A stretch of 57,378 nucleotides of DNA, counting the filler, from Streblomastix strix (Eukaryota): NCBI GenBank assembly GCA_008636045.1. It is 2 parts of 2 records of this genome, joined end to end, with 100 filler letters (N's around TTAATTAATTAA, not from the genome) between each part and the next. Parts side by side here need not be neighbours in the genome. Positions count along the whole stretch, not along the records: positions 28,747 to 57,378 come from SNRW01000118.1; 1 more part is not named here. One strand, given 5' to 3'. Both the position numbers and the translations under genes were made by a program. The notes beneath the pieces are model-generated. The model was not told where the DNA came from, did not search any database, and saw only the letters and a list, made by a program, of their open reading frames with translations. Positions 2,681-54,846 of the stretch are shown here, one piece after another; within the stretch, counting starts at the first letter, position 1, and every line of letters starts with the position of its first letter.

Positions 2681-2870
2681 TATGGCTTTAAATACCATTT
2701 ATAATACAAATTTTTATTTATTTTGTATTATATTAACTATGCAATAGTATTTTTCAAACTTTACACTCAGATTTTAGATTTACTTATAATTTGATAATCT
2801 ATTTTTAAAGAAATTAAATATAAAATTTTAAATAATAATGTAATTTTATTGTTTTAATTATAGATTGTAG

Positions 2871-3434: not shown

Positions 3435-3615
3435 AGGGACTAATTATTCATTTACACTTTCGAGGGACGAAATTGGCAAAATAAATTCACGTACACGTTG
3501 CATAATTTTATAATAAACAAATAGCACGAGTCCAAATATAAATGTAATGATTTACTCCATGATTATCTTCATATTCCTATTTCCCAACTCTTCAATATCC
3601 CAATAGTCTTGATCT

Positions 3616-4737: not shown

Positions 4738-4852
4738 TTGATGTTTCTACAATAAATAAAAATCATATGTTAAGTTCAAAAATTGATATAATATAATTAA
4801 TATAGCACAAAATAAATAAATAAAAGTATTATTAATAATTAATGGAAGCTAA

Positions 4853-5423: not shown

Positions 5424-5466
5424 TTGTTTTGATTTTTAATTCAGAAGTAGTCATTTCATTATAAAA

Positions 5467-6008: not shown

Positions 6009-6105
6009 TTTAATATTAATATTAAATAAATAATAAATAATATATATTTTATTAGGAAATCTTTTTTGAATATCTTTTGTGAGTGTTGTGAGTAAATATG
6101 AATAT

Positions 6106-7845: not shown

Positions 7846-7931
7846 TGAAATTTACTATTATTTAATTAAATGCTGTATTGAAATAATAAAAAAATAAATA
7901 GATTTTATTTTTGGAAAAAAGAAACGAAATT

Positions 7932-8996
7932 AAATAATTATTTTAAATATTAGATAAAATAATGATTTAATCATAAAAATAATTTTGAATTATGAGTGAT
8001 TAATTAAAGAAAAAGAATATATCTATAAAATAATTATGAATAATTTATTGGAATAATAAAAGAAATTGAAATTGTTCGAATATTTGTAAATAAGAAAATT
8101 TGTTTTGTATTTTGTTCAATGCTACAAGATATTTTTTTGGATTTATGAAATTTTTATAATTATCATATATATTTGGTTAAATTATAAGCATTTCTATTAT
8201 ATTTCAAAGTGAAAATTAAATTAAGAACGAGAAATTGGAGATTGAAAGCAAAATTGAAAATATCATGCTTAGAAACTTTAAATATATTAAATAATTGTTG
8301 AAAGTTGTACAATATAAAGAATCTTTATTTGAGAAATAAAACTGGAATTATTTTGAGATTTGGTTCGTGTGGAATTAAGAAATTAATTTCAAGATTGGTA
8401 ATAGGTCAAAATAATGTATTGGACTCATTTTTCAGGATAGGCATGCATTTAATTGAATACTTTTGCAAATTCAAAATAATGAATAATTATATGGAAAGAA
8501 GATTGAATTACAAAGCAGAAATCCTCATTATTGGTAACTGATTAATATTATCTATCCAATTAAATACCAAAAACATACATTTAAAATGGATGTAATACAA
8601 ATTCATTGATTAACTCACCATATATTGCAATAATGTAAAATTGCGAATTCTCTCTCGATAATAACTTTCTTACTTATTCAAACTGAAATTTATAACGCAT
8701 TTTAATCTTTTAATTTAATATGCTTTCAAAAGACAAAATTGTGAGATTATCACCCTAAAATGAAGCTTAAATTTATTTTTCGCTATAAATGCATATTTCA
8801 TCTGTTCCTATTTGTTTGACAATAAATAACATATTTAGATATGAAATAAATCTTTAATTAGACATATTTTAATTATTTATGTTTAAATTTATTTCTTAAA
8901 TACATTTTATGAAACAATAATAACTAAAATTAATAATTAACTATATATTTGTATTTGCATCTTATCTAATCAATTTATTTTTATATATTTTTTTCT
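7932..8996 (+). repeat. Intergenic cassette B, copy 1 (fills the divergent SPRY / CWF19L2 spacer)
   Basis: About 1.06 kb, colinear and highly similar to 24602-25672. Confidence 0.93.
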
Positions 8997-9023
8997 TTTT
9001 AACTAAATTTTCATTAGATCTTG

Positions 9024-12185: not shown

Positions 12186-14807
12186 ATGACAAGGATCTTT
12201 CAATGTTTTGCTCTTATTGGCTTCAAGTATGAGAGATCACTGAAAGCAACTGTAATTTATGAGTATTTGATTGAATTATATAATTTAATACTTACTTCTT
12301 TCATTCTAGTTATAGAGAGTTAGATTTCTTATACCCTGACCACTTTTTAAAGACATGCGTTGAAGATTACTCTTTCAAAACAACAAATTTAATATGGTAA
12401 GTTTATTTCCTTTAAAATTAATTTTTAATGTCAATTTAATAACAGAGCATTATCCGTTATACCAATGCCTGGTAGGAAGACAATTTTATACAAACTCTGC
12501 TTCCTTTCTCCAAATTCTAAAATTCCTCGATATCCACTTTGTTTTTGTTTTGTATCAGAATTGTCTGCGTTTATTTTTATTTTCTGCTCAAAAATGTTGG
12601 TATTTAAATGATTTATTTTCATTAGAATATGGTATAAAATGTTTGATAACACCTGCACATTACTTTACAACAAATTCTGTTAGAATATAAAGACATTATA
12701 TCCATCTAATTCATAACTAAATAATCTTCCAATTAATTGTAATCTTATTTTTTCTTAATTTTTAGATGATCTTGTATGTCAAGTTTAATATTATTTACTC
12801 GTTTAATTTATCTTCTTATTTATTTTTAATTCATATCAATGCTTTTTCAGTATAATACTCCTGTACCTCCAATTGAAATAGATAACAATGAATAAATTGA
12901 ATAAGACAATAATGAAGATGAATATAATGAAGATGAAAATAACAGCATATAATAGAAAGACAATAATCATCTTAGATAATCATCTTAAAGTCAATCAACA
13001 TTCACATCATCATCTTCTTCATCCTCTTCATCTTTTTCTTCTTCATCCTCTTCATCATCATCAGCATCTGGATCATCTTCTTCATCATCTCAATATTCAA
13101 AGACTTCATAATAATCTTTGGTTTAATAAAATCATTAATCATAAAATAAAACAAACTAAAATCCAGTTTTAAATTCTTCTAAGGAAAAAGATAAGAAAGA
13201 GGATTAAAGTAAATCTATTCATATATCAAATTAGTAAAGCAAAATAAACAAATATTAAAATATAGAAAATGGGAAATTAAAAGATAATAAAGGAAATATA
13301 AGAAAAGAATCAATCATAAATATAGAAAATAGTTCAGTGAAAGAAAAGGATTAAAAATATGAATTGTTAATTGATTAATAGTTATGAAACAATAATAATG
13401 AAAAGAATATTAATACAGATGATAAAATTATGTAAGTTAGTTTTGATGATGAAAATGGAAATATCAGTAAATAAATTAATAAAATAAATAAAACAAAATC
13501 AGAATTATTACAAAATCAATTGAAAAGCATTGAACAACAACACCAATAATAATAACAATAGTTATAATAATAACAATAGTTATAATAATAACAACAGCAA
13601 TAATAATAATAAATTTAATAACAATAAATTTAATAATAATAACAATAATAATCTATAAGTTTCCCTAAATTAAATATTTAAGAGCTTTCTTAACTTCATT
13701 AAACTAGAAGTGTAGAACTAAGAAAACATATCAATTATGGTGCCTTGGATAATATAAGAAGAATTGAACTTGATTTTTAAAACTAAAAACGAAAAGAATA
13801 AAAACATCATCATCATCAAAATAATACTTCACATTCAAATCATAACAAATAATCACAAATTTCTTAACAAATAAAAATAATAAACAATTTATAATATGAT
13901 TAAGAAAAATATGAAAAAGAAAAGCATTTAGTTAAATAGTCAGAATAAGAAAAGTAAAAAGTAGATAATAGCTAAATTGGAGAAATAACTAAGGATAATA
14001 AGAATATTAATGAATATTAAAATTAAATTTCTGATAGTTAATTAGTATAAAATAGTATTGATAGAAATGAAAATGAAGAATAAAATGATGTATAAGAATA
14101 ATCATCAGATGATAAAGAATAATATAATGTAATTCATTCAGAAGATAGATCATTAAATTAGAAAACTGATATTAAAGGGAAAATAATACAAAATTACAAT
14201 AATAAAGAGAATGACAAAACTTCAGATCATTAAACTTCGCATTAATCAAATTATTCATCAGAAAAAGAGAAAATTTAGCGTATTAACATTCAGTATTAAT
14301 AATAACCTTCATATTCACCAATTCAAACTCCTCACAGTGAAGATACATCAAATAAATATAATTAAAATTAGACAAATTAATTTGACATAGAGGTTGATAT
14401 TTCAAAAGAAAATGAATTATATAATCAGAATGAAGTGGATAAATAAATGTTAGTAAGTCCAACGTAGCTGTTTCCAATTATTTAATATGACTAATCTATT
14501 TAATAACAGATATTAATCCCCACAGCAGATTCATTGACTCTTAATATTCCAAATATTTCTGTATAATCTTCACAATCTTCTTCAAAAATGTCTTAATTCT
14601 TCTTACCATATTCATATTCTCCAACATCTCCTTAATCTTATTAATCTCAATAAAATAATTAATAGGATAAAGAAATTAATTCATAAATGATGAAGTAAAT
14701 AGAACTTATTTAATACTCCCCATGTCAATAATAAAATGACATATCATAAATTGAATTAAATTCACCAATATAACCTTAATAATAATCTTCATTAACTCTT
14801 CCTACAC

Positions 14808-22765: not shown

Positions 22766-22904
22766 TCCCTGAAATATATATAAAAAAATGATTGATTAGC
22801 TAAAAATTAAACCAAAATCTATTTGTTAAGTTCAAAAAATTGTACAACAAAGTTAATATAACACTATATAAACAATTGAATTATGAGAGACTAATACAAA
22901 TTAT

Positions 22905-23473
22905 AAAGTAATTAGAATTATTTAATGATGAGAAATGATGGATAGAAGGAATAAAGCTATAAATAATAAAATCAATGATATAAATATGCCGGAAATTGAA
23001 AATTTGTATAATTGGAATTAATCATATGTATTGCTCAGAGCAGAAATGAAAAACAAAATAAAAAAATAAAAAGTGTGAAATCGGGAGTTGACTTGAAATA
23101 AATAAATGTTGATAGAAATTAATAAATTATATTATTATAATATAATTGAAATAATAACTCCAATACTTCATAAGGTGGCTATAAACACAGGAAAACGATG
23201 CGCAAGTAAATATTTGTTTTACTGCGGTGAAACATGAAAAATTTCAGGTAATAATTCAAAAATATTATTTAATGGTTGTGCTTTATGATTTGTGATAGGT
23301 ACGAAAGTATATGCGCAAGAAAAACGAGTTCGAAGGACGATCACGCCCCTGACCGAGAAATTTTCTGTCAGATCTCGAGTAGGACCAATTTGGGGTTGAA
23401 TAATTTGTAAATTGACATTATGAATTATTAATAATTTATTAATTATAACTATTTTTATTTAAGTTAGTTATTA
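22905..23473 (-). repeat. Intergenic cassette A, copy 3 (upstream of RPS27A)
   Basis: Near-identical to 4853-5423. Confidence 0.92.
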
Positions 23474-23483
23474 TAAAATTAGT

Positions 23484-24573: not shown

Positions 24574-24601
24574 TCAAATTCCTGAAAAAAGAGAGGATAT
24601 A

Positions 24602-25672
24602 AAATAATTATTTTAAAAATTAGATCAAATAGTGATTTAATCATAAAAATAATTTTGAATTATGAGTGATTGATTAAAGAAAAAGAATATATCTATAAAA
24701 TAATTATGAATAATTTATTGGAATAATAAAAGAAATTGAAATTGTTCGAATATTTGTCGATAATAAATTTTGTTTTGTTTTTTGTTCAATGTTTCAAGAT
24801 ATTTTATTGGATTTATGAAAAGTTTAGAATTATCATATATATTTGGTTAAATTATAAACATTTTTATTATATTTCAAAGTGAAATATTAAATTAAGAACG
24901 AAAATTTGGAGATTGTAAACAAAATTGAACATATCATGCTTTGAAACTTTAAATATATTAAATAATTGTTGAAAGTTGTACAATATAAAGTATCTTTATT
25001 TGAGAAATAAATATTGAATAATTTTGAGATTTGGTTCGTGTGGAATTAAGAAATTAGTTTCAAGATTGGTAATAGGTCAAAATAATGTATTGGACACATT
25101 TTTGGATATGAATGCATTTAATTGAACGCTTTTGCAAATTCAAAATAATGAATAATTATATGGAAAGAAGATTGAATTACAAAGCAGAAATCCTCATTAT
25201 TGGTTACTGATTAATATTATCTTTCCAATTAAATATTCAAAAACATACATTTAATATGAATGTAATATAGATTCATTGATTAACTCACCATATATTGCAA
25301 TAATGTAAAATTGCGAATTCTCTCTCGATAATAATTTTCTTACTTATTCAAACTGAAATTTATAACGCATTTTAATCTTTTAATTTAATCTGCTATCAAA
25401 CCACATAATTATGATTCCCTTACCCTAAAATGAAGCATAAATTTATTTTTCGCTATAAATGCATATTTCATCTGTTCCTATTTGTTTGACAATAAATAAC
25501 ATATTTAGATATGAAATAAATCTTTAATTAGACATATTTTAATTATTTATTTTTGAAATTTCATCGTAAATACATTTTATGAAACAGAAATAATAACTAA
25601 AATTAATAATAATATACTAAATATTTGTATATGCATCATATCTAATCAATTTATTTTTATATTTTTTTTCTT
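24602..25672 (+). repeat. Intergenic cassette B, copy 2 (fills the divergent hypothetical / HAD spacer)
   Basis: Colinear with 7932-8996. Confidence 0.93.
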
Positions 25673-25723
25673 ATTATCTTAATATTTTTATTTGATTTAA
25701 ATAAATTATGAAAATTATAGAAG

Positions 25724-28746: not shown

Positions 28747-28749
28747 AAT

Positions 28750-29208
28750 ACAATAATGTTCATCACTAATCTACTTCAACATCCATATTCATTAATCATT
28801 ATCAATATTGCAATCAATAATTTTATTTCAAGTGTTTATTTTCTTTTACATTATTTATATTATCATATTTATTATTATTATTTATTATTATTATTTATTT
28901 AACATTAATTTATTTTATTTTTCAATGTGGGGCACTCTCCTTTTTCACATAACTACTAAGGAGAGTGCCCCACATTGAAAAATAAAATAAAATAATATAA
29001 AATAAATAATAATAAATAATAATAATAATAAATAATATAAAATAATAATAATAATAAATAATATAAATGAAAATAAACATTTTAAATAAGATTATTGATT
29101 AAAATATTGAATATGATGAATGAATATCGACATTGAAGTAGATTAGTGATGTACATTATTGAATGATACTCTTGAAATGCATGGCACTTTCCTTTTTCAC
29201 ATAACTAC
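28750..29208. repeat. Large inverted repeat with Polinton-type AGTAGT terminus motif
   Basis: Perfect 34-bp arms 28909-28942 / 28958-28991 inside imperfect ~200-bp arms. GGCACTYTCCTTTTTCACATAACTAC occurs at 28931-28956 and 29183-29208. Confidence 0.8.
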
Positions 29209-29708: not shown

Positions 29709-30215
29709 TCAATATATTAGCTCCAACTCTAATATAAAGTCCATATGGTTAGTATCAAGTAGATTTCCGTCTTAATCTTTGAACCAAAAGTACATTAATG
29801 GAGCATGATTCATTTATTGAAATATTTTTTAAGTTCTTTATTCATCACAGATTCAAAAATTATAATCATTGTATTATTCTTCCTGGACAATCGTTGAATG
29901 TAAGGATATTTTTCTATGCTCTTTTGGAGTTATATCAGGATCATTTTATGCAAGAAAATCATGATAATATATTTCAATCATCCATGGAATTATATATTAA
30001 TCAAATGTTATTCTTCTGTTATTCTAAAAATTAACAAAGTCTACAGGAAATCTTCTTACAAATGATCGATCTTAGATTAAGTTACGTTCATAGGTAACAA
30101 TAAAATGTTTTTTATTTGATGCTACTCATCATATATTTGATTTACTGCAAAAATATTCACTTCGTGATTAAGCCGATTTTATCGGCATAAATTTAATACT
30201 CCATAATTTATTCAT
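29709..30215 (-). pseudogene. Minor capsid (penton)-like protein
   Basis: C-terminus SLHSTIVQ..MYFWFKDQDGNLLDTNHMDFILELELIY* resembles polinton/virophage penton ends (xDQxGxxxD..FxLxL). Internal TGAs. Confidence 0.6.
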
Positions 30216-30223
30216 TATTTTTT

Positions 30224-32747
30224 TCATGCTCCAATTTCATTAACTATTTCGTCAAAAGAATGTATTGTGCCATAATGGCATGATCTACCTTGATTTAGAC
30301 TAAATAACCAGAAAGTGATTTGAACTATAAACAGAATTGGAGGTTATCGTTTTCCATTAGTATCAATAATATAATAACAATCAGTAACCCCTTGATAAAT
30401 TTGAGCTCAACGAAGTTCGACAGAAATATTTTTATTTATTGTATAAAGTCCATAAAAAGTTAGAGTACCATTGCAATTTCTCTGACATTGTAACGAAACC
30501 ATGAAAGAAGTTAAATCAGTATATACATTAAGTCTTCATGTTACAGTTTTTCTTGGAGTTGTCAACGTATCTTCAAATTCATCTGTTGCTTCAAATAATT
30601 AATCTAAATAACTTGATTTGAGCTACAATTAAAAGAATTATCAATCATTAGTATTTATAGGCTTATCTGGGAAGTTTCTTTCGCAAGTTGTCAATTACAT
30701 ATTTTAATAACATGGATTTTCGAAACAAGTGGTACATCTAGCATCTTTATGAAATAACAACAGAAAGTCAGTAACATGAGATAATGGAATATTTTAAGAA
30801 GTTCTGATTCCAGTAAGTGTTGCAGAAGTTGGGAATGGCCATATTTCAACTCTCTAAGCTGGAAGTACAAACCCTCTAGTACTGAAGAGTTCCCTAACTC
30901 TTACAATGCATGTATCAATTGGTTTATATCCAGTCATATTTGGGTGTGTCCATTCAGTAGGATCATATTTTTTTTTATTTAAAAATATTTTAAATAATTT
31001 TAATAATAATATCTGAAGTTACAATTTTTTGAAATTATGCGGCGTTGCTGAAACTGCCAAAAAATATAACTTAGATTTTTCGCAATCAAAATGGAATCAT
31101 TATCACTTTAATTATATTGTAAACTTTTTAAAATTATTTTAAAAATAGGTATAACTATAAATATTGCAGATTCCACCGCGAGTGTTATAAAATAGATTTT
31201 TTTATTGTTTTCATTTTTTACTCAATCTATTATTTCAAATGATTAATTTTTTTTTAATTTTTTAATAATAAATAATAAAATTTAAGTATATAAGTTAATA
31301 AGTTCAACTTTCCTTTCTATGACAGATACAAATTCTCAAAAAAAAATAAAATCAATTTTGCTCCAAAATTACTGATAAAATTTTAATTTTTATTAAATTT
31401 AAAAATATTAAATAATTAACAATAATGTACTTCACTATAAAAATTGGAGATTAATTTAAATTGAGCCGTAAAACTGAAAAAGTAAAAAAAAATTGTAATC
31501 TCAGAAGCGTGCCGCTGAAAATTCACCAACTGCCAATAATTATACCTGAAAAATAATTTTATATATTTTAAATAAAATTAAAACGATAGTGATATCATTT
31601 CCATTGCAAAAAAGCGAAGTTATATTTTTTGACCTTTTCCACAACGCCGCACTATTACGAAAACTATAACTCCAGATATTGTTATTAAAATTATTATAAA
31701 TATTTTTAAATATTAAAAAATAAAGGTGTTGTTTGTAAATGGAAACACTCATTTGCGAATACTTCAGTTACAACATAATTCTTTATTGAAACTGTTACTG
31801 GAGCAATAACACAAACAAGATTCTTCAAGTCACTTGGAGTATATTATTCCGTTATATTGCAAATTTTCAAATCAACCATATATCCAAGCAATGTAAATTA
31901 TTTTGCATATTTGAATGTTAGGCTCCAATTACGGAAGAAGAGGTCAATATCCATCAACTTCTGCTATCTAGAACTTAGCATTTCATTCTTATTCATTGAA
32001 TAATATTTAACCAATGGAACTGTTGGATTAACATATCCAAACACAAATCCGTTAGGATTGATCTTGAATTTAATCTTAAGATCTCCAAACATTCCATTTA
32101 GATAATATTTGAAAGTAGAGAATATCAGCAATTCATTTAAAAGTACTGAAAAAAGATGAATCTAATAGGTATCAAGTATAGAATATTTATTTAAGTTCCA
32201 ATTGCTTCTTCAAACTCTATCTTTGTAATATAAGTTCCACACGCTGAAGTATATAACTTATGGATATTTTCATATAACGAATGAATAAGTTTTCTAATAT
32301 TTTTCTTTGATTTTGGCTTAACATGTTATAGATGAATGATTCAGTTGTTGCAACATTCTACAAGCTTCCATCAATAGTTCTGCTACGATTATAAACTGTG
32401 TATTCACAAATAATATTGCTTCCTGACTTCAGTCCAAATAATAATAATACTCCATCCTTGTACGAATCATCAAATTATTCGAACTTATTATCAAATTATA
32501 GTTTCACAGATAATACAATAGATATGAATGAATTTTTTATAAGAGTTATGTCATGATCACTGTTAGATAAACTAATGATGATCTCTTTATCAAACAACGC
32601 TGGCATCTATGATTCAGGTTTAATATCTTTAATTGAATAATGATGTTCTCCGTCATTTTTGAATGGAACTACCGCGTTTGATTCAAGTTATGATTCAATT
32701 GTATTTAATCCTTGAACTTAGGTTGCTTTTGCAAGAAAACGATTCAT
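30224..32747 (-). pseudogene. Probable double-jelly-roll major capsid protein, interrupted by a MITE
   Basis: About 570 codons after removing 30942-31750. Beta-rich (..MFGDLKIKFKINP.., ..PAQRVEIWPFPT..NIPLSHVTDFLLLF..) and lies between the pVI-like and penton-like genes. Identity inferred from size and synteny. Confidence 0.6.
30942..31750. mobile_element. 809-bp MITE with long imperfect TIRs, GRG termini and 4-bp TSD (Sola2-like)
   Basis: Ends GGGTGTGTCCATT / AATGGAAACACTC, ~210-bp imperfect TIRs, ATTT duplicated at 30938-30941 and 31751-31754. Excision restores the frame EVFAN|MTGYK. Confidence 0.85.
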
Positions 32748-39539: not shown

Positions 39540-40603
39540 AAATAAGATTCGAATTAGAAACATTTATCGATAATCTTTGAATTTTTGGAGTATATAATTC
39601 TTTAATATTTTTATTTACATATTTGCAATAATATATTGGAATTTCTATAGTCTTTAATTCATTAAAGGTCATAATCGTTAACCACAAACGTTTCCGTGGA
39701 CTTATGCAACAAATTCTGCAAGTTTATAAAAATTTCTTCTTTATTTCATGAAAATATGTATTGTACGATAGTAACCAACATGAATCATTATGATATCTCC
39801 ATTCTGAAAGTTATGCAATTTTTCAAATATTTATTTATATTTTGCTTCTAGAAATTCTATATTATGTTTTCTTATGAATATTTCTTCTAGATCTACATTA
39901 TTATTCACTTATTCAGAAGTAAAATAATTATTGAAAGCTTTATGTAGAGTATAATTTTAAATTTCTATCATTTATTACATTAAACCAGGATTTGCAAATG
40001 CTCTTTCATCTAATCCGAATGCATTTCTGATAGTTCTTACAACTGAATCAACAATTTTGTTATGATTTGTAAATGAAATAGAAGATCCATTAATGAAAAA
40101 TGTTTTAAAAAAATTATTATTTGGAGCTCTGTAGAAATTTATTAATAATGGAACAGTAAATCTTTTTTCGCCATCACCTCTAATATATCTTACATTCTGA
40201 TGTTATACTAAATTTTATAGTACTTTTAGAATTTATTCAGTTGATTTTTAAGATAAAAGATATACAACAAGATATTTGATATTGATATTGATACGGAATA
40301 AATAAATTTAACTTACTTTCTTTATTAACGGATTCATTGAGAAAACTAAATTAATTTCACTTGAAATTATATTTCGAGAATAGTAAAATCTTCAAAATTT
40401 CTTATAAAATTAATTAATTTAATAATCTGTAATGTCTACGATGTCATAAGTTCTAAATACATTTTGATCAAATTGAATTCCATGTATTTTCTAAAATGCT
40501 TTTATTTTTGATTTGAATAGGAATTCTACGTCTTTTCTAAATTATTGCTCACGAACTGTCAATTTTTATCCATTATTCTTTCTTTTTCAACTCTATTCGC
40601 CAT
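39540..40603 (-). pseudogene. Retroviral-like (rve) integrase of the Polinton
   Basis: EINLVF..YLFRININIKYLVV..IRGDGEKRF..FTNHNKIVDSVVRTIRNAFG..NYTLHKAF. Frameshifts near both ends. Confidence 0.75.
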
Positions 40604-41021
40604 TTCATAGATATAATCATTAGACCATTATATTATTGATTTTCTACCTACTATTATTATTTTTGCATATTTTTCCATAACTGGAAACTCAGCATCAATA
40701 TAATGTAAATCAAATGCTTCAATGAATTCTAATAAGCTTAAATTTTGCTTTTTTTGAAGTATTTCTTAAATTACAAGAATTTATTATTAACGATATTCCT
40801 CAACGGCACTTAGATTGTTTGATTTATATCTTTCAAGTATTTCGCTTAAAATTTCTTCTTCCGATTTTCTTTTTGGCGGTCATATGTAATGATCTCCTTT
40901 TCTATTAGGTGATAAGTAAGTTGTATTGCATTCATTACTCATTGTAATTTTTAATTAAATCAAAAATAAAACAAAAAATAATGTAGTCTTTAAACATCAA
41001 ACGGAGTTTATACTGACTTCA

Positions 41022-43783
41022 TCAGCTTAGCTCTTAGCATGCATAACTGTTAGCAGTTAGTTAATAAATAAAAGAACAACAACACTAATTTGGTAATGTT
41101 ACCATTTTTGTATGACTTCATGTTATTCTATTTTTAAGAACTTCAATTTAACTCATTTCTCCAGCACGTTATATAAGAGATATATTCTTACTTTTAACTA
41201 CAGTACCAATCTAAATATTTTCTTCAAATGCTTATTTTTTAATTTGTGGATTAAATTTTAAATTAAAACTTTTTAATTTACCCATTTCTGGGTTCTTCTT
41301 ATTAAGATCTTCAAAAAGTCAATAATTCTTAGGTGCAAATGCAATTAATTACGAGCAGCAGTGTTCATATGCAACACTAAGTAATTTCTTTTCGTTATAT
41401 ACATCTTTAATAGGATCTGTGGAAAATTTTTATTATTTTCATCGAAGAATTATTTATCAGAAACTATTGCAGAGAATCCTTAAGTATAATCTTAATTCGG
41501 ATCTCTAACAACAGCTAACATCAGAGAATATGTATCACCATAAACATAATGAAATCGATTTTTATCAAGATATTTACTTAAGAAATTATTATAGAAATTC
41601 ATAACTCAGTATTTTGAACAATCTAGAACAGCAATTGCAGCTTAAATGTAAGTATTTCAATTAAATTTCTACTTTTTAAATTCAACTGCATATATATTTT
41701 CATTTAATATACGATCAGCTTTAAAAATATCCTAGAGATGAGCTCTAAATATTTCATTTTTATCATATATTTTTATATATGAGAAGTGTTCTTAGTTCAT
41801 ATCATCACTACCAAATGAACTATTCATTGAAATCTTACTATATTATTCCAATCCTTTATTCTTTTCTAACTTAGCATATATAAATTATTTACAGAAAAGT
41901 TTTACAAACAGAGCAAATCCTAGATGTTTAGAGAATGACATAACAGATTTAACTTCATCGATTATGATTTGACAATTATCGATAAGAAACTATAGATTAT
42001 ATAAATAAATACTCATAAATTCTCACATTGTTGATGGTGATGAAGTAAGTTTATATTCTTTTTATCAATTGATAATTCATTTTTCTTTTAATGATCATGC
42101 ACATTTTTTCCTATTACTGATTCCAATTCCTTAAATTTATACTTTCTAGCCAATAGTGGAAAGTTAATAAAATCATTGATATATTCTTCATCTATATGTT
42201 CTTTAACTTCTGCAACGAATACTGTTACTTTATATATATCAGATGGTTTAGTGGAAAATCTAAGAGGAAAAATAATAGCTTCAATTGTTTAATTTTTATA
42301 TTTATTAAATTTATAAGTGTTTCGACTGATTTCATTACTAGGTATATATATTTAATTATCAATGTATTTAATGAAATCATGTTTGAGTCCACTAAACATA
42401 GACAGATACAATTAACTCTTATCAACTCCGGATATATGAGTCATAATTTGATTTAAATCATAACTGATGGCCATATTTTCCTCCCATTTCATTTAATTAA
42501 TATGAATTTCGCCTTTAATATTATATCCATGAATAACATTTGCTAATTCTCCTGTAATTCCATTTCTTAAAATGTGATAAGTATCTTCATTAGTAATTGG
42601 CATTGGCAAACTTTTAGCTAAATAGAATCTTTTAAATTATATCTTTAATCAGGTTATTTTATCATCTCTGTTAGCTTTTGCAACATTACAATAAACGCAT
42701 GCTAATCTAACATTATCTTTTGTGTGACTAATTGGGCTATTAATTCTGTCAAGTGTTGGTTGACTTTCATTAGTAAATCTTACCTTTCAAAAACAACAAG
42801 ATCCTTTTTCAATCTCTTATGCAAATTGTTCAAAATCAGATTCTTACAAATTATCAGTGAAGCCTCAATTAGCTTTTAAATCCTATTATTTATATGAATT
42901 TAATTTTTATTACAACTATTCCTCTGTAAGATTAGTTGTAGAGAAACTAGTGAAGGACGAGTCCTTTTGGTATGTATAACGAGCATTCAAATCAAAATCA
43001 TGATAAGCTATTTTATATGATATAGAGTTTGCTCAACTAGCTATTTAAATATAATTAGACATGTCAATTCCATTTTAAAAATTCATTTCAATTAAACTTT
43101 CAATTGGTATAATCATTATACTAGTATCTTGTTCATTATAATATTATAGATAATCCAATCTATTTGTAAATTATGTATCATCTTCCAAATAAATCTGGTA
43201 AGCTTTATCTATCAATATATCTTTTCTAAGTTTATTAATAATATTTTCTTTCGTGAATGGTTCAGATTTTGATAAGATCTCACTATAATTATCTGTATTA
43301 ATAGCATCATAAGGAAATACTCTTTTTAATCATCTTTATTGCCATTATAAAAATCTACAGTAAATTATTTTAATGCTCATTTTGTAACAAATAGTATAGC
43401 ATCTAAAAATTATAATGATACTCTAGTAATTTTATGTTAAACTTCTACACTCATAATGTGAGAAAAATCTCCAAAATAGCATATAATATGCCATAATGGA
43501 TTAGTTAAATATCAGATTACAAATACTATATCGAAATGTGCAGAATTATAACTAAGTACAGGTATTGAAATATTGAAGGGTATTTCAGGATCATCGTATT
43601 GGTGATCTTCTTTCAATTGTTTCGCTTCTTCAAATATTTATTCAAGCTATTTTTCTATAAAATTCTCTTTACATAAATCAAAATATATTATCTTAATTCC
43701 AGCTTTTGATTTAATAGTTGATGCAACTGATAATGGTTCTAATACAATGTGTTGTTGAGAGATATGAACCTCAATACTATTTA
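41022..43783 (-). pseudogene. Outer pPolB, 3' half (exonuclease, HNH insert, polymerase)
   Basis: LEPLSVAS, GYNSAHFD, KRVFPY, TLDRINSPISHTKDNVRLACVYCN, degenerate motif A GVDKSQLYLS, KISMNSSFG, YGDTYS. Confidence 0.88.
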
Positions 43784-44057
43784 AATAATATATATTGGCT
43801 GTACCACAGTCGACTAATTCTGCCGCGCTATTTGTAACCATAATCTCCGCGTCAAATGACTTTTATAACTAAGGCTCAAATCAGCAATGTGATACACAAA
43901 TGATATTGACAATTCAAAGCAAATATCTATGACACAAATGAGAACAATTCATCAATGTGATGCACAAATGATGTCGATAATTCTAATCAAATTTATATAA
44001 CACAAATGAACTCAATTCATCAATGTGATACACTTATCATCAAAAATAGTGATATCA

Positions 44058-47000
44058 TCATTCAATTAAGTAATGATCTGCATTAATTCCATACATAAAT
44101 GGAGCACAACATCCATTAGATAATACAACCATTTTATTATGAGTACCTGTTAGCGCTGACTTTTCTGTACATATCATAGACATTATCCCCATTTTCATCT
44201 ATAAATTGTTAGTTGTCACATTAATTTTACATCCATCATTCAAACATTTAATGTAATCATTAGTTGTTAAATTAGCCTTCTTTTCACTTACTCCTTTCAT
44301 CCTATTCACTAATGATACTATATCGTCATTATGTTAATTTCCATTGTATAAACTATAACATTTAGGTGCTAGACAAACGATATTTTCTCCTTATGACTCA
44401 GTAGTGATACCCATTAATTTCTTCTCTTCAGCAACAGTACAATCATTCCAAGGAAGCTACTCTTTATAGTGTTAGTCATAGAACCCCTAGTCTTTAATCG
44501 CATACTTCAATCCTTATTTATATCCTTCAATTTATGATCCAGCAATAGCTAAATACATTGAGTCAGTATCCATATTACAGAAGTGAACTCTATCCATATC
44601 AATACATTTATAGAGGAAGTTGTATACAAAATTTAGATACCAAAATTTGCTATTGTCTAGAGTGAATACAGCTTCTTGCAATGGCTTATTACACTTAAAT
44701 TATCTAGGTGATTCACTAACCATATATTATGCCTCTTCACTAAGGCTCCCATCAGGATTGTATGTATCATCACTTAATTTCCTTGTTGCATTATGATCTT
44801 GTATCAATTATTTGAGTGATGCCTGTTGAGCATTGTTAAATGATATCTTATCAAATTTAGCATTATTTTATCCTTCTCCTTCAAAAGCACTATTCAGAAT
44901 TTGCTTGTAATATAACGATTTCGTGTCATTATGTTGGCTAATTGCATCCTACCTGTTGCTCATCATTGTACAGGCAAATGATTCGAAACCTAGATGTTTA
45001 TCGAATAGGGCTATTGAATCAATATCGTCAATTATTAAATTACAATAGTCAATCAAAAACCATAAAATATAACTAGTGAAACACATAAATTGATTGTGTG
45101 TTGATAGCAATGATGTTAGTTTTGTAGTAGGTTTGTCAATAGTTAATCCCTATGCCGTCATCTTGTTATACATAAATTCTCCTATCTGTTCAATTGAATT
45201 GTTATATGTTAATTTCCTCCATATCGGTTCTAAATTTATGTGTGAATTAATATGTTTTTCATCAATATGACCTTTAATACGAACACAGAATAGTTACCCT
45301 TTGCCATTGAATCTATCATCACTCATAATTATATCGCGAGCTTTCTATTTTGAATTATTAGATGTGCACTTGAAGTAGCTAGTCAATCCACCAGCCTAAT
45401 ATATTCGATGATTTGTATAGGGGTTATTTTTGTTGAATATACCACTAAATATTGAGGGATAGAGAGAATTGAAATCTAAATCAAGGATGTGAGTGATTAT
45501 ATGTTATGTGCCATATGATGTTATTGTTTTAGCTACATAATTATATCTAAGTTTGTTGATGTGTGTGATACCTTTCAAATTGCATTAATGATACACATTA
45601 GACAGTCCACCCTACATACATTCCTTTAACATGTTATATACAGATTCATTATTAATTGTCATAGGCAGATGTTCATGGATAGCATATTTCATTAATTGTA
45701 TCTTTAATTTACTAATATCATTATCTTTGTCAGCCTTAACGGTATTACATATTTAACAAGCTAGTTAACAGTTCTATTTTGTATGGCCAATTGAATTATC
45801 AATTCTGTCTAAAGAGGGTTTGTTTTCTTTAGTGAATTTGTTGTGGCATAGATGACATGTTTTACTAGCTACTTTATCCCTAATCCATTCAAAATCATCC
45901 TCATTAACATTATTGGTGGTATCCCTTTTAGCATATTCATCTTGATTAATATATCCTTTGACTTTGTTATTCCACCATTATTAAGTAACTTCGAATTATT
46001 CAAAACCATTAACTATGTTATAACTTGCATTGATATCGAACTTGTCATATCAATATTTATATTTAATTTAACTAGCAATTTGAGCTAGTGATATACATCC
46101 TAACATATCAACTTTCTCTTCCCATGTAATTTGAATAAGATGATTGATTGGGTTAATCATACAATTAACATCCCTGATATTATAGTGCTTTAGATACTCC
46201 AATCTGTCTTGAAACGAAGTGAAATCATTAACATACTATTCATAATCTTCGTCACTAATATTCTTATTATTAAGTTTGTCATAGAAATCTTCCTTTGTAT
46301 ACGCCTCTGATTAACTAAGGACTAATTTATAGTTATCATAATTGAACGAACCATGTGGAAATATACCTTTTGTTAATTTTATACCTTTAGTACCAAATTT
46401 CTCAACAAACTACTTTAATGTGTTGTTTGGTGGAATGAATGATAATATATCGATAAATCTCAAGTCAAAATCATAATCTTAATGTGATACTACAGTCTAT
46501 TTAACTTAAGTTGTTGATCCCATATATTAAATTTTTGTCTTATTTTTAATTAGATGTTTGAGTAATAAATTCATATCAAACTTCTTAGAATTGAATCCAA
46601 TAACTGATACTTGGGGCTTATAAGGAATAACTCCGTGCTAATGCTAACACTTATCATTAATTGTAACATCAGGTATATTTGATTAATTAGCTTCATTAAC
46701 AGTAACGGCGACTTCAAACAGTTAACTTATCCATTATTCAATAAAATCAGATCCGTTTCGTAAATCAAAATATAAAGTAGTAATTTAATCGTTTATTGTC
46801 GCTGCTGACGCTACAGATAATGGTTCTAATTAATCAATTAAGTTATTTATTCCGTTAGTTATATTCTCTACTGTTTCAAAATCAAATGTAATGTAATTAA
46901 GTGTAGGTGTTAATAAATCTGACTAGCCTGTAGATACTAATTTCTATAGTAGCTTATTATTTGATATATGTGGATAATATGGTTTTGGTAAATGATTTAA

Positions 47001-49170
47001 TTTAACTTATTTAGTTGTCTATGGACCTTAACAATACTTCAAAAGTCTCGCAAGAACACGCTTATAATTCTAGTTCTTAGTAACAAATATTTTTTAACAA
47101 TTGAGTGGACTGAGTTTTCAATTAATAACTTCATCAATATTACTAATATACATTGCATGGATTTCATCCACTAATTGCAATGGTACTAATAATACATTAA
47201 CAGTTAGATAGTACTTATCGAAAATATGTTCGTCAAATTTATTAAATTATTCAACATCAGTATTTTTCGTTTTATGTTTCATCTCGTCACATGTGTATGT
47301 AATTACATTTAGTTTGAACATCTGTTGATACTTTTCCAAATCAGTTACATAATTGAATCCATTATATTATTCCATTAACTATTTATTAGATTTATTTAAT
47401 CTCTAGCTTGGGTTAATGTCATGGTATTAGAGGAATTATTTAATAGCATCACTTATCCTACTACAAGTACTATCAATATCAGGGTGTAATGCAAATGATG
47501 CAACTAAAAACCAACAAATTTTTGTAATCACATTCTATATCCCTAGTAATACCTTCTTTATTAAAGTGCTAACATATTTTATCCATTTTAGTGCCTAATG
47601 GCAGTCTATAAACAACAATCAAAAACGAATATAGTGCTACCTTTAATGTTGCTGAATCTTGATGATTTGTGTCTTAATAATCTGATAATAAGTCAACAGC
47701 TTTTTATTTGAAATAGTCGTTAGTTTGTTTATCTCGAACTACTGTGTTAGGTAAAGTCTTGTAACTGTTATCAGCACTAGGTCCAGTGTGAGAATAATGA
47801 TATTCATCTAATGTTTGTTAATGCTTATAGACTTATTTCTTTTTCTACCAGATAGATCCAAAATCAATGTATACTTTATAGGGTTTAGCTTTCTCTAATT
47901 CATATACTTAGTCGATTTTATCTTTCAGTTGCTATAAGTCATAGAAATGATTGTAATAGTATTAAATATACGGTTCTTTATTGAATATATATTTTGACTT
48001 CATTAGTTCATCAGATAGACCATCAATACTGACTTCATTCTTTTCTTAGAATTTCTATCGTGCCTGAGCTAATGCAGCATAATAAGATGATAAATTCTAA
48101 AGTGTGAAGATAACGAATGCATTCTATTCGAGTTCCCTATTCTTATTTAATTATTCTGTTTTTGTAATATTTGGTTCATTAAAGTGATCCTTATGTAATC
48201 CATAATACTCATCATTAAGCTTTTTAACTCTTCTATTGAATTCTTTAGCACCTAATTTTGCTTCTAAGTAACTGAGAATTCTAAATGGTTTTTCACCTTA
48301 TAGCTTATATCTTTAATTAATGAGTATCTATTACAATTATTCATATAGCTTATGTCTCTTTCATTTGTCTTAAATCACTTTAGCAGCATTAATTGACTAC
48401 TTCATTAGTTATTACGCTAAGTGTCTTCGATAATGTTTTTGAATTAGTACAGCTGCTTTATTCTATTTCTCTAATTTATCCTTTAATGCTTGTATCTCTT
48501 ATTGATGTAACTATTCTTATTAATCTAATTCTTATTAATGTTTCAATTATTGTTCAGCTAGCAATTACTTATAATTCTCATTAATCTCTTTTGGCTATTG
48601 AATCTATTCTTCCAAATCAAATTCTTCTCTTAAAATTTCATTAATTGTTTATAGTGACTCTTATAACTAATCTATCTAGTTAGTTATTTATAGCTATGCT
48701 TGTAACAATTATTACATACGCTATCTTCGACCACTTTCTTCAAATTTTAATTTTTAATTAGCTCTGTATTTATCAGGATTGAATATATCATCATCAGTAT
48801 TGTCAGACTAGTTCAATTCATTTATGATCTCATCAATATTTTTGACTAATTGAGGTTATTGTTAATCATTATTCAACTATAATTACTATTCATTAACTGG
48901 TTCTATTAATTGTTCTAATTAAGGTTATTGTTATTGTTAATCATTATTCAACTGTTTTTACTGTTAATCATTTCTTTCAGCAACAATTTGATTTACAAAA
49001 GCTACAATTTCAGTTGTAATAGTTATATGACCTGGATAATGTAATCAACGTAATTCATTAATTAGCATGTTTCTTAATTCAACTGATGTATAATTAGGTA
49101 AATATTGAACTTATAATTGGTCTAGTAAATTTTAAATCTATTATTTATTCATTCTGTATTTCTCGGCCAT
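44058..49170 (-). pseudogene. Protein-primed family B DNA polymerase (~1700 codons) with long N-terminal extension and HNH insert
   Basis: FDFETV, GFNSKKFD, KGIFPH, YNIRDV, CHLC..SLDRIDNSIGHTKQNCQLACQICN, LDFNSLYPS, KQILNSAF, MDTDS. One extra base near 47520. In-frame TGA at 49045, 48361, 47118 and 46050. Confidence 0.92.
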
Positions 49171-49235
49171 TTGTGTGTGGGAAAAAAAGTCAATTTATTA
49201 CTTTGCCAATTTTCTGTATTTTTATTTTATAATAA

Positions 49236-49601
49236 ATGACATATGAAGTGAAGTCGTTATTATTGTAAATCCCGTTAATAAAAATAACTAAAGAATTACG
49301 TTAATTTGTAAAATCGAATCATGATTTGCTATTCCATGCTACAACATTCACTTTAAATAGATATATGGCAATACCACATTTTAGATTTCTTCAAAGACAT
49401 GACTATATTCATGTATATTGTGACCGTAAATGAAGATCTAGTTAACCTGAATTATTGCCTAAAAATATAAACTCTGTTGATAGCATAAATGCTATCAATT
49501 AGTTAAGTGATTAGTCAGAAAGTATTAATGAAAATTCTGATAGCAACTCCGTTGGTGTTATAAATGCTAATGCTTCGCAATCTGACTCGCCGATCAGTTG
49601 A
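49236..49601 (+). CDS. Small ORF of the nested element, divergent from pPolB
   Basis: MTYEVKSLLLQIPLIKITKELRQFVKSNHDLLFH.., 122 codons with one internal TGA. ATG is 65 bp from the pPolB ATG. Confidence 0.45.
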
Positions 49602-50187
49602 TTATATATTATTTTTTATCTATAATATTTTTAATTATTGATACATAAAGTATACCCATATTTGAAATTATTTGAAAAATTTTAGTAATTTATTTCATAC
49701 TATTTTAACACACAACCCTACAACACTATCCTAATTACAATACATATTAGTGAAGCAAGTAGTGATATAGACTATACATATAAGTAATTGATATAATTAG
49801 TCCATTAGTTTGTTAAGAAATTAGTAGTTAAAATTGTTAAATTTTTTCACAAATTTTGAAAATTTCATGTCTATTATTCAAATAATTTTGAACATTTTTG
49901 AATAATTTTTAAATATTAATCCATATCGTTTGTACATCACATTGATCAATTGAGTTCATTTGTGTTATATAAATTTGATTAGAATTATCGACATCATTTG
50001 TGCATCACATTGATGAATTGTTCTCATTTGTGTCATAGATATTTGCTTTGAATTGTCAATATCATTTGTGTATCACATTGCTGATTTGAGCCTTAGTTAT
50101 AAAAGTCATTTGACGCGGAGATTATGGTTACAAATAGCGCGGCAGAATTAGTCGACTGTGGTACAGCCCATATATATTATTCATTTA

Positions 50188-52507
50188 TAACTGATTTACT
50201 ACATTATCCTTAATTAATTAATCTAGAAACAGTTTCAAAATCATATATTGTAAAATAATTTGTTAGATTAAATTCATTTAGCCTTTCATATGCCATAAGA
50301 TATTAATAAGTGTTATTTCCAAATATGTGAGGAGAAAATGGTGAAAGAGATTTTAATAATATTACTTATTTACCTTTATTTTATTAATATTTTGTAATAT
50401 ATCTTTCAAAATCCCTTAAAGAATGTCTATTTTTATTCATTACAGAAACACTATACTGTTTACAAAATGGACAATTACGATAACCTGTCAATGCTTCAGG
50501 ATCAGAAACAAATAAAACATGAGAATTATTTTTTAAGTTGAAGCAATAATAAATTAAAATCTTATAATTAAGATTTGTTTTTTTCATTTTAATATTTTTT
50601 TTCATCATCATCATCACCATCATCTTCTGCTTTGATATTCTAATCTATGTAGAATTAATCATAAGCAGATGTTGTGCTAACTTCATTAGATTAAATTGGA
50701 ATTTCTTTGCATGCACAAATACAAATGTTTATTTGAAATAATTTTGCAAGTTTCTTGTCATCAGTAACAAAATCAAACCCTTAATATTCTTTAATAAATT
50801 TCTATATATATTTACGTTTAGCAGAGCTTCCTTGATGAGAGAAATATTAATTCGTCAATTTAAATCTTTCAGTAATTCTATCCTAATCTTTATGTCGTAT
50901 TTTTTTCGTTTTTATTTGGCAATGATATGAATGACGACGCGTCAAATACACAATTGTTGGGATATTTCTATTCAATATAATGTACCTAACGACGTTTAAT
51001 ATATTTCTTTAAATCTTAAATCGCTTTACTAGTTAGAGAATATCTATAAACAACTATAACCATAGAAAATATTGCAATAAACTTATGATGAGTTGATTCT
51101 AATGTCCTTTCCTAATCATTTATTATAATTGTTGGAACATATTCTTTAAATTCATCCATATCAGCTTGAGAAGTAATTATTTTCTTAATATTTTTTGCAG
51201 AAGTAGTATTTAAATTCTATCTTGGATAATTGATAGTATATTCTGCTGTTTTATTACTTCCATCATTATTAGTAATAGCTTCTTCAACTATATAACCAAA
51301 ATCGATAGCAATCTTAAATGATTAGTTTTTTCCTAATCGAATACGAAGTTTAAATGATTATATATATATATATTCTAATGAAGTAATTCTATTATTATAA
51401 TAGAATATCGTCGGTTCATCTTTAATTCTTCTCTATTCAATTCTAGTTGGATCTTAATATTCAGCATGAGCTTGATGTAATGCTATTATAAATTTTTCAG
51501 AATCAATAGGTTTACATAATAATAATGCATCCACATTTTCTATTGGTTCCACATATTCCAAATCACTATCTATGTACAGTTATATTTTTTTCAAATTTCC
51601 TCATCTAGAAGTCCAAATGTTTACAGTTACAGTTCATTAATGTTATTATGCTATCTTCGTATATTTTTATATTTTTCATCAAGAAATTTTTAAAATTATT
51701 CTTTGCGATTTTAAGTAATTGCTTCTTACTATAGAATATCAACTTACATCGATTTGTCTACTAATTCTTCTTAGTTATCAATTTCATTAACAGAAGATCG
51801 TGCAGGCTTCGGTTTTCTTACTCGTATTCATTCACAAGCTTCTCTTGAAAAAGGTAACAAGAATGAAATATCTTTTGGTTCTTATGGTTCTAATGGAAAA
51901 AATTACTTTAAAAATCTTCTAATTCTTTCTTCGGAAAAAGATTTAGAATCATCATAATCACATTTATCTAATTCAAATGAAAGTATATTTCTAGGATTAC
52001 TAAAAATAAGTTCTTCGACATTCTAGTCATATCCTAGTCTTTTCTGTTATTATTAAAAAATTGCGTCGAAAGATTAGAACTCTATTATGATTATATTGTT
52101 TTGATAGTTTTTTTTAATTCAGACGTTCTTTTTGCTGTTACTCACTTTGTAAGCGCTTTAAGGAATGCTCCTTTTCTTTTTCTTCTTTATCTTTTTACTG
52201 AGTTCACATCGCTAACTTATACAATCTCTCAATTTTGCTTTTCATCCAATTCTAAATATTGTATTAAATTCAATTCTTAATCATATTTTTCAAATTCTTC
52301 CTATTATCGATTCCGAACAGCCTCGACAATTCTTCATTTAAAATCATCGGAATAACTGTATGGGCTTGTTATTTTATATTCTTCAAGTGAGTTTTCTAGA
52401 TATAATCGAACAACTGCTACTATATATGCAGATAAGTCATGTATACCAACAAAACCGGAAAATCTATCCAATGATGATAATTATGCTTTAGTAGGTCTAG
52501 GTACAAT
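50188..52507 (-). pseudogene. Outer pPolB, 5' half (N-terminal extension, Zn finger, Exo I)
   Basis: FKIAIDFGYIVE (homologous to the inner YKVYIDFGSIW), DPEALTGYRNCPFC, TIYDFETV. Multiple stops and frameshifts. Confidence 0.8.
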
Positions 52508-53082: not shown

Positions 53083-53434
53083 CCATTGATTTCATCAATG
53101 GTGCGATAAGAATTGACTATCAAAACAAGGCTTGCACCGCGTCATATGTTTTTGAAACAAGGCTTGTACTTCGTCACGAGTTTTCAAAGCAGGCTTACTT
53201 CACATCCTACATTTTCAAAACATGGCTTTCACTATGTCAGGACTTTTTGAAACATGGCTGCACTGATTCACAAGTTTTTAAAACAAGATTGCAACGAATA
53301 CTCTAGTTTCAGAAACGAGCTGCAAACAGACACAACGACGCAAAACAACGCTGTATTTAAGTTTTAAAATACCAAACATGCTCTATAATCTAAAAAACGT
53401 GCACTGCAGCCGTTGATTTCATCAATGGGGCGAT
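53083..53434. repeat. Degenerate 31-32-bp tandem array between two palindromic boxes
   Basis: About 8 units of TTTT-AAACA(A/T)GGCT (GG-equivalent positions 53129, 53161, 53192, 53224, 53256, 53287, 53318, 53349), flanked by CC(A/G)TTGATTTCATCAATGG(T/G)GCGAT. Confidence 0.75.
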
Positions 53435-53637: not shown

Positions 53638-54096
<459 letters not shown>

Positions 54097-54846
54097 AATG
54101 TTATAATAATTATTTAATATGTTTATACACTAGACTGTAGAAATCTGCATATTTTAAAATGTATGCTTAATTCTATTTTATTTATTATTTTTTATTGATT
54201 AAAATGATGATTAATTTTTCGTCCGTGTTTCTGAACCAACCAATTTGTTGGATGACGATCGATTTTTACTGATAAAATTCAATATAATAATTTTTCAAAT
54301 TCATTTTTCTCTTTTGTTTTCATATTAAATATTAAATTTATTTCTTTTTTCTTTATATTTATTTGTAATCAGTTACATAAAATTATGATTTTCCTTCAAC
54401 AGTTACTGTTGAACATGAAATATCTTCTAAAGATTTATATTAGTATAAAAATTTGGGGCTAGATTCTCAAAGTTAATAATTGAAGAGATTGGTATGCAAT
54501 TTTCAATATTACTAATAAAAACATGAATGCTGTGATGATTTGATGATTATTGATTATTTTTTATGATATTTATGATCTGTCTCGTCTGAGCCATCATTTT
54601 TGCTAATTATTTATCTAACAGACTATTATTGATTTGATTTCACTCTTTCATTTTTCTTAATTTATTTTTATTCAGACATTGTATGAGAAGAGCCCAAGAG
54701 GAATGAAATAGCATATAGCACTATTTTGTTTATTTGATTATAATCAAAGAGATGAGAAATAAAAACAAATAAATATCCTCATAATTCATTTATTGATAAT
54801 CTTGTTTTTAAACTTAATTATTTTCCTTAAACTAACAAAATATCAT

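What the first reader, a model, noticed from the sequence alone, without database searches (positions are those of the whole stretch)
43778..50187. Minimal 6.4-kb TIR element carrying only a pPolB, integrated into the polymerase of a Polinton-like virus
Seen: 246-bp TIRs starting AATAATATATAT, a 6-bp TSD (5/6 match), one ~1700-codon pPolB and one small divergent ORF. No integrase, capsid, ATPase or protease. Removing it restores the host pPolB frame (SKSVIN-GIEVHISQ). The inner pPolB is homologous to but clearly diverged from the outer one, so this is not a local duplication. Known: long TIRs with short terminal repeats plus pPolB define protein-primed linear replicons, and 6-bp TSDs are typical of Polinton rve integrases. 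Inference: a linear-plasmid or satellite-like replicon that borrows integrase (perhaps also capsids) in trans and parasitises polintoviruses.
Basis: partly seen in the sequence, partly recalled or inferred. Interest (0 to 1): 0.82.

Follow-up and report, generated by a model that had tools for sequence, protein, structure and literature searches.

The report
Polymerase-only element nested in Polinton-like virus
A 6.4-kb mobile element with mirror-image ends and just one large gene, a self-priming DNA polymerase, sits inside the polymerase gene of an integrated virus in a gut protist and belongs to a multi-copy family that likely copies itself but likely borrows its insertion enzyme from full-size viruses, an unusually stripped-down way to be a mobile element.

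Summary
Observation confirmed, with corrections. The element is 43784-50181: 246-bp TIRs (2 mismatches), a 6-bp TSD (5/6), one pPolB and one small divergent ORF, all in genetic code 6. It splits a Polinton-like pPolB in frame, and a related outer copy shows the empty site. This copy is dead (4 stops, 1 frameshift). It belongs to a family of at least 52 gene models on 51 Streblomastix strix contigs (59-95% aa). Some are near-intact, and the family is only about 31-35% identical to the outer pPolB. Other copies have different flanks. The compact layout (pPolB, small ORF, subterminal block) recurs in several diverged copies, so it is not a one-off deletion. Of 27 S. strix integrase gene models, 9 run into a pPolB piece and none into this family's. 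Best reading (0.55): an integrase-less, capsid-less, protein-primed replicon inserted in trans by Polinton integrases. Not excluded: a larger or complementary partner with the same ends, or insertion by its own HNH domain. Specific parasitism of polintoviruses and a free linear form are not shown. New variant of a known kind.

The parts
43778..43783 (.). Target-site duplication, left copy (TATTTA; 1 mismatch to the right copy)
   Evidence: the empty site with one hexamer
43784..44029 (+). Left terminal inverted repeat, 246 bp, starts AATAAT; inner part holds 2.3 copies of a 68-bp unit
44058..49170 (-). pPolB pseudogene (~1,700 codons, code 6): coiled-coil N-terminus, terminal-protein-like domain, vOTU-like Cys/His motifs, Zn finger, Exo I-III, HNH insert, Pol A-C. 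Broken by 4 TGA stops and 1 frameshift; its stop lies 28 bp from the TIR
   Evidence: start codon inferred from the N-terminal likeness of homologues seen
45726..45860 (-). HNH / endonuclease VII-like domain inserted between exonuclease and palm; best-conserved part among copies (93-96%)
49236..49601 (+). Small divergent ORF, 121 codons, one internal TGA, no family assigned; one homologue (EZS28_000091, 51% aa)
49613..49935 (.). Subterminal AT-rich block shared with other copies
49936..50181 (-). Right terminal inverted repeat, 246 bp
50182..50187 (.). Target-site duplication, right copy (CATTTA)
50188..51600 (-). Target: 5' part of the outer Polinton-like pPolB, up to just after Exo I (DFET); decayed
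41034..43777 (-). Target: 3' part of the outer pPolB; decayed
39600..40942 (-). Outer element's rve-type integrase (candidate donor class for the inner element's insertion)
   Evidence: 74% to EZS28_017921 ('Integrase catalytic domain'), also hits a T. vaginalis integrase-core protein
30200..32747 (-). Outer element's putative major capsid gene, decayed and interrupted by a 757-bp TIR insertion (30966-31722)
   Evidence: E 1e-19 to an ORF of pPolB locus L003; capsid identity is inferred from context and recall, no Pfam match

Best explanation
This is one decayed copy of a multi-copy family of 6.4-kb TIR elements whose only large gene is a Polinton-type protein-primed DNA polymerase; the family likely replicates as a linear molecule from its own ends and is likely inserted in trans by the rve integrases of co-resident Polinton-like viruses. 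Step 1 (shown for the family by motifs and fold; activity inferred): the pPolB carries a terminal-protein-like domain, vOTU-like Cys/His, exonuclease and palm, so it would prime on the AATAAT ends and copy the element. Step 2 (inferred from the 6-bp TSD and the lack of its own integrase): a Polinton integrase would act on the blunt TIR ends and join them to chromosomal DNA. Step 3 (shown): copies landed at different sites, including other repeats such as this Polinton's pPolB, and then decayed separately.
For: Anatomy and empty site. Family size: 28 of 38 hits are S. strix models at 59-89% aa, and 24 more members are listed; together 52 models on 51 contigs. Several are near full length and open (1,443-1,695 aa), one of 1,653 aa on a 6,375-bp contig. 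The fold is phi29-like (E 4e-12), with best viral matches in bidna-like, MELD and adintovirus pPolBs. The N-terminal model's best hit is an adintovirus protein (E 4e-6). Catalytic motifs are kept. Compact layout recurs: gene model EZS28_002371 begins with 24 aa from the antisense of the small-ORF region (83%) and continues into pPolB. An X1 contig links 49288-49473 to 49614-49729 with 133 letters between, against 140 here, and four variant joints run from 49540-43 to 49612-14. At the 3' side, EZS28_006531 reads from pPolB through the TIR to the exact terminus and then into a foreign gene. Different flanks: loose ends at 50177 in 4 X1 contigs (agreement 0.62) and an X4 piece that ends at 50181. 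No integrase link: 9 of 27 S. strix integrase models are fused to a pPolB piece, all at most 42% like this family; 1 of 51 family contigs shares a contig with a listed integrase, and there the integrase is joined to an outer-type pPolB. rve integrases typically make 6-bp TSDs (PMC12220804, passages).
Against: No complete second element was read end to end, because no genome is held and TIR scans of public collections were empty. Summed contig depth over the small-ORF segment is only roughly a tenth to a quarter of that on either side at 80% likeness. This may be divergence (the one protein homologue is 51% alike, and dips also occur inside pPolB), but most copies could carry other or longer cargo there. 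The integrase test has limited power: only 4 of 26 integrase contigs are 9 kb or longer, and a divergent integrase could be missed. Termini are AA..TT, not the AG..CT I recall for Polintons, so recognition by the outer type of integrase is unproven; the outer element's own ends were not found. Only one TSD was seen.
Confidence: 0.55

Rival explanations
1. The element is the replication half, or a successful deletion subfamily, of a larger Polinton lineage with the same TIRs. A sibling with these ends carries the integrase and capsid genes, either as a full-length parent or as a complementary second segment.
For: Distant relatives of this pPolB (27-43%) sit in full Polinton-like loci: L007 has an A32 ATPase, L001 an integrase. 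There is a depth dip over the variable segment. An earlier AI note describes such a split Polinton in a flatworm (e1-8581312; a lead, not evidence). TIR- and TSD-retaining partial elements are known in Halocafeteria (10.64898/2026.07.28.741278, passages).
Against: 0 of 27 integrase models are fused to or match this family's pPolB or TIR. 17 of 18 family contigs of 9 kb or more have no listed integrase. Summed depth on the TIR (both ends pooled, about 12,800-14,800 at the terminus) is only about twice that on pPolB (crude, not a copy number). The family is a long-branched clade far from every integrase-linked pPolB sampled.
Confidence: 0.27
2. The element inserts by itself: the HNH domain inside its pPolB makes a staggered cut, and the polymerase and host repair join the linear element into the break, giving the 6-bp duplication with no integrase.
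For: The HNH motifs are intact and are the best-conserved part among copies (93-96% against 80-92% elsewhere). No integrase is present in the element.
Against: The same HNH insert is in integrase-bearing relatives, including the outer pPolB, and in nematode and oomycete Polinton pPolB2 (PMC10748475, passages). Targets differ between copies, unlike homing. Flush TIR ends with a 6-bp TSD are what rve integrases give.
Confidence: 0.12
3. A one-off internal deletion of a Polinton, or an assembly join of two repeats.
For: The window's own junctions were not seen bridged in the listed contigs.
Against: TSD, exact in-frame split and empty site. The same compact layout appears in diverged copies.
Confidence: 0.04

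Closest known systems
Polintons/Mavericks and Metamonada-group endogenous viruses of S. strix and T. vaginalis (PMC10120064, passages)
   Same: Polinton-type pPolB, TIRs of hundreds of bp, 6-bp TSD, same host group and genetic code; nearest pPolB relatives lie in such viruses
   Different: 6.4 kb against 15-30 kb; no integrase, capsid, ATPase or separate protease
Repeat-bracketed replicase modules nested in Polisuviricotina genomes (bioRxiv 10.64898/2026.10.13.758929, section 13)
   Same: A second replicase with its own repeats sitting inside a PLV or polinton genome; proposed as a mobile module
   Different: [quoted passage not shown] Here there is no integrase, the insertion has a TSD and disrupts the resident pPolB, and a multi-copy family is shown
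Transpovirons (PMC11071308, passages)
   Same: About 7-kb capsid-less linear TIR elements (size recalled) that depend on other viruses and can integrate
   Different: Transpovirons encode pPolB-SF1 helicase fusions without exonuclease and parasitise mimivirids. This pPolB keeps Exo I-III, has an HNH insert, shows no helicase motif or match, and resides in the nuclear genome
Cytoplasmic and mitochondrial linear plasmids (PMC11071308, passages)
   Same: Capsid-less TIR replicons built on pPolB; cytoplasmic ones share the TP-vOTU-Exo-Palm layout
   Different: Those are extrachromosomal and usually carry their own transcription genes (recalled); this family is integrated with a TSD and has none
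Capsid-less pMVREs (PMC13215967, section 7) and partial TIR/TSD elements of Halocafeteria (10.64898/2026.07.28.741278, passages)
   Same: TIR-bounded endogenous pPolB elements without structural genes; nesting of one element in another
   Different: pMVREs have exonuclease-less pPolBs of the mavirus lineage; the text read does not describe an integrase-less, pPolB-only amplified family

Membership tests
Polinton/Maverick | Protein-primed family B polymerase | tested here: met
   Motifs; phi29-like fold E 4e-12; Pfam DNA_pol_B_2 in homologues P0034 and L007
Polinton/Maverick | Own rve integrase | tested here: not met
   Integrase profile finds none in the non-pPolB parts; 0 of 27 integrase models fused to this family
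Polinton/Maverick | TIRs and 6-bp TSD | tested here: met
   (one TSD seen)
Polinton/Maverick | Capsid proteins and packaging ATPase, 15-30 kb | tested here: not met
   6,398 bp, about 5.1 kb of it pPolB; no match to ORFs of full loci outside pPolB. Holds for this copy and the compact siblings, not proven for all copies
Transpoviron | pPolB-SF1 helicase fusion lacking exonuclease | tested here: not met
   Exo I-III present and the protein ends after the palm/thumb
Transpoviron | Propagation with a giant virus | not testable with these tools
   No infection or virion data
Linear plasmid (invertron) | Terminal-protein and vOTU domains at the pPolB N-terminus | tested here: inconclusive
   Cys/His motifs conserved; model hits an adintovirus protein (E 4e-6) and MELD pPolB (E 1e-3), but pLDDT is 57 and the PDB-wide search returned only coiled coils
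Linear plasmid (invertron) | Free linear DNA with protein-capped 5' ends | not testable with these tools
   Only assembled contigs were available; they cannot show molecule ends
Non-autonomous TIR transposon | Multiple insertions at different sites with no own recombinase | tested here: met
   Different flanks; 51 contigs
Non-autonomous TIR transposon | Shares termini with an identified autonomous partner | tested here: inconclusive
   Outer element's ends not found and no TIR likeness at its borders; no genome to search

The most novel reading that the evidence does not exclude
A self-standing class of minimal nuclear replicon: terminal repeats plus one terminal-protein/polymerase/HNH polyprotein, with no partner sharing its ends. 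It multiplies as a free linear molecule and hijacks the integrases (and possibly capsids) of unrelated Polinton-like viruses, landing in and knocking out their replication genes. It would be a living intermediate between polintoviruses and linear plasmids, and a vehicle for the polymerase swaps seen among Polintons.
Probability: 0.3. Interest if true: 0.85.

Novelty: new variant of a known kind. Interest (0 to 1): 0.66.

Why it matters
Linear plasmids and transpovirons are thought to have arisen from Polintons by losing the capsid module (PMC11071308, passages), and Polintons are known to have swapped polymerases (PMC10748475, passages), but the mobile unit behind such swaps is unclear. A 2026 preprint found repeat-bracketed pPolB modules only together with integrases. 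An amplified family that keeps replication but drops integration reverses the usual non-autonomous pattern. It gives a concrete, countable system for testing whether Polinton integrases act in trans on foreign ends, and whether an inserted replicase can replace the resident one.

Tried and rejected
Code 11 gave almost no ORFs; code 6 was adopted. No whole genome is held. TIR patterns found nothing in metagenome, viral or prokaryote collections (the first two used this copy's variant, which differs from the majority at two bases). pPolB scans of viral contigs found no relative. No RNA holder was listed, so there is no evidence on expression. I considered a wider clade of 6-7-kb pPolB-only replicons, because metagenome homologues sit on 5-8-kb contigs. 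I rejected it as support: the AU test rejects their monophyly with this family (p 9e-9), one groups with integrase-linked L001, and a full-length gene needs a contig over 4 kb anyway. A sister relation of inner and outer pPolB is neither shown nor rejected (p-AU 0.45). The tree was a quick LG+G4 run on 26 of 35 rows; 9 redundant or short rows were dropped after the full run timed out. The small ORF has no Pfam or PHROGs family; it was not compared in the Atlas. The target gene of copy EZS28_006531 is a family of 28 clusters with no match in the window, the 12 loci or Pfam, and only unnamed low-count Atlas look-alikes; whether it is a Polinton gene stays open. The PDB-wide fold search of the N-terminal model returned only coiled coils. 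The outer element's ends were not found. Earlier-findings look-ups by place, sequence and first word set were empty.

Full report
Setting. The window is AT-rich and nearly ORF-free in code 11 but opens in code 6. Its left half holds ordinary host genes (MCM8, a JAB/MPN protein, a CwfJ-like protein). Homologues of the element's polymerase at 59-89% identity are all labelled Streblomastix strix, an oxymonad known to use this code, as do its endogenous viruses (PMC10120064, passages). The host is therefore inferred to be S. strix or a close relative. No whole genome was available.

The observation. The element runs 43784-50181 (6,398 bp). Its TIRs are 246 bp and differ at 2 sites. The flanking hexamers match at 5 of 6, which happens by chance in 1.3% of site pairs at this spacing. 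The two outer pPolB halves are in frame across the site, which lies just after the Exo I motif. A contig of run X3 from a related outer copy joins 43739 to 50182 and has the hexamer once: an empty site. Inside are one pPolB on the minus strand (about 49170 to 44058, ending 28 bp from the TIR) and a 121-codon divergent ORF. This copy is a pseudogene: four TGA stops and one frameshift in pPolB, one TGA in the small ORF. The target is a decayed Polinton-like element with pPolB, an rve-type integrase directly downstream (74% to EZS28_017921) and a putative capsid gene (identity inferred, no Pfam match). Inner and outer pPolB share 31-35% amino-acid identity and only two short 68% DNA matches.

The polymerase. 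In an alignment of 15 homologues the vOTU-like Cys and His, a Zn finger, Exo I-III, an HNH insert and Pol A-C are conserved (domain names follow PMC11071308, passages). A model of family member P0043 (pLDDT 71) matches phi29 polymerase best in the PDB (E 4e-12) and bidna-like, MELD and adintovirus pPolBs among viral models. A weaker N-terminal model (pLDDT 57) hits an adintovirus protein (E 4e-6), which fits a terminal-protein domain but does not prove it. The HNH insert matches endonuclease VII/HNH PHROGs (E 7e-11) and is shared with integrase-bearing relatives.

It is a family. 28 of 38 hits and 24 further cluster members (3 clusters opened) make 52 S. strix gene models on 51 contigs. They form one star-like clade on a long stem. 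Ten near-complete copies each carry 1.1-4.9% private substitutions, and some have damaged motifs, as expected for a burst followed by separate decay. Pieces are also present in runs of two other studies (X2, X4); X1 may be the window's source and is not independent. Copies sit at different sites: loose ends at the terminus in 4 X1 contigs agree at only 0.62, and an X4 piece stops at 50181. Gene model EZS28_006531 reads from pPolB through the TIR to the exact last base and then into the middle of an unrelated multi-copy gene.

Is the family compact? At the 3' side pPolB abuts the TIR in other copies too. At the 5' side, model EZS28_002371 starts in the antisense of the small-ORF region and continues into pPolB. 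An X1 contig, about 19% diverged in the small ORF, links it to the subterminal block at nearly the same spacing, and four variant joints do likewise; two more contigs link the pPolB start region to the small ORF. So the layout predates this insertion and was amplified. Against this, summed depth over 49170-49609 is far lower than on either side at 80% likeness (170-1,250 against 1,800-8,000; the tool warns this is no copy number). Fast divergence can explain it (the only protein homologue is 51% alike; similar dips lie inside pPolB), but other cargo in most copies is not excluded.

Is there an integrase of its own? None in this copy. A profile search gave 79 integrase hits, 19 from S. strix, and 8 more members came from 4 opened clusters. 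Nine of these 27 gene models run into a pPolB piece, showing how closely integrase and pPolB are linked in full elements. Every such piece is at most 42% like this family. There (10,935 bp) the integrase is joined to an outer-type pPolB three locus tags from the family pPolB, which looks like a second nesting. The test is limited by short contigs and by the search's word and length filters.

Mechanism. The best fit is a protein-primed linear replicon (AATAAT ends resemble the short terminal repeats used for sliding-back initiation; recalled). It is inserted by an rve integrase supplied in trans, since those typically leave 6-bp TSDs (PMC12220804, passages). Replication by its own enzyme and integration in trans are both inferred. 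One oddity fits traffic in trans or end-to-end repair: the two TIR arms differ at 2 sites where about 9 are expected from this copy's private divergence (P 0.007, assuming neutral decay), so either the arms were homogenised or the copy moved after its polymerase was already damaged. Rivals are a larger or complementary partner with the same ends (0.27), self-insertion by the HNH domain (0.12) and a one-off deletion or misassembly (0.04).

Relation to what is known. Distant relatives of this pPolB lie in full Polinton-like loci (L007 with an A32 ATPase, L001 with an integrase), so the element is Polinton-derived. It works like a linear plasmid or transpoviron that integrates, but fails membership of Polintons (no integrase or capsid) and of transpovirons (exonuclease kept, no helicase fusion). 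The nearest printed case is the set of repeat-bracketed pPolB modules nested in polisuvirus genomes, which are paired with integrases (10.64898/2026.10.13.758929, passages and section 13). Capsid-less pPolB elements (PMC13215967, passages and section 7) and nested or partial TIR/TSD elements (10.64898/2026.07.28.741278, passages) are also known. Eight searches showed no description of an amplified pPolB-only, integrase-less family in an oxymonad. I read passages or single sections only and opened no supplements; the element tables of PMC10120064, PMC13215967 and the two preprints could hold such elements.

Verdict. A real insertion and a real family; a new variant of Polinton-derived replicon. 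Specific parasitism of polintoviruses rests on one clear case, one likely case and one insertion in an unidentified repeat gene, so it is not established. Interest 0.66.

Noticed in passing
window 2138-5400 and 22808-23474: Two ~600-bp inverted repeats (about 90% alike, outer ends AGT..ACT) bracket a JAB/MPN host gene (3616-4737); a third copy lies at 22808-23474. Either two MITE copies in opposite orientation or a TIR element carrying a host gene.
   Followed up: no
window 30966-31722: A 757-bp AT-rich element with ~175-bp inverted ends (81%) interrupts the outer element's putative capsid gene.
   Followed up: no
window 28748-29164: A long hairpin (arms of 111-142 bp around a 15-19-bp spacer) next to an N gap at the left border of the outer element; possibly two repeat ends head to head.
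   Followed up: no
window 7914-9019 and 24584-25696: A 1.1-kb dispersed direct repeat, 92% alike.
   Followed up: no
window 53123-53287; 53782-54100: A 32-bp tandem array and a beta-tubulin fragment lie just right of the outer element; the array may mark its border.
   Followed up: partly
window 43784-44029 and 49936-50181: TIR arms are more alike than this copy's decay predicts and share variants that differ from most other copies.
   Followed up: partly
L004:3-3616: A pPolB C-terminal part on the plus strand faces the N-terminal part of what looks like a second pPolB on the minus strand (judged by eye).
   Followed up: no
proteins P0116, P0117, P0130: Metagenome integrases of 530-600 aa related to the outer integrase recur in clusters of 13-36 members, nearly always on 2-4-kb contigs; possibly integrase-only elements, or just fragmented assemblies.
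   Followed up: no
P0059 residues 1453-1695; P0240-P0266: An unnamed multi-copy basic protein family (28 clusters) is the target of another copy of this element; no Pfam family.
   Followed up: partly
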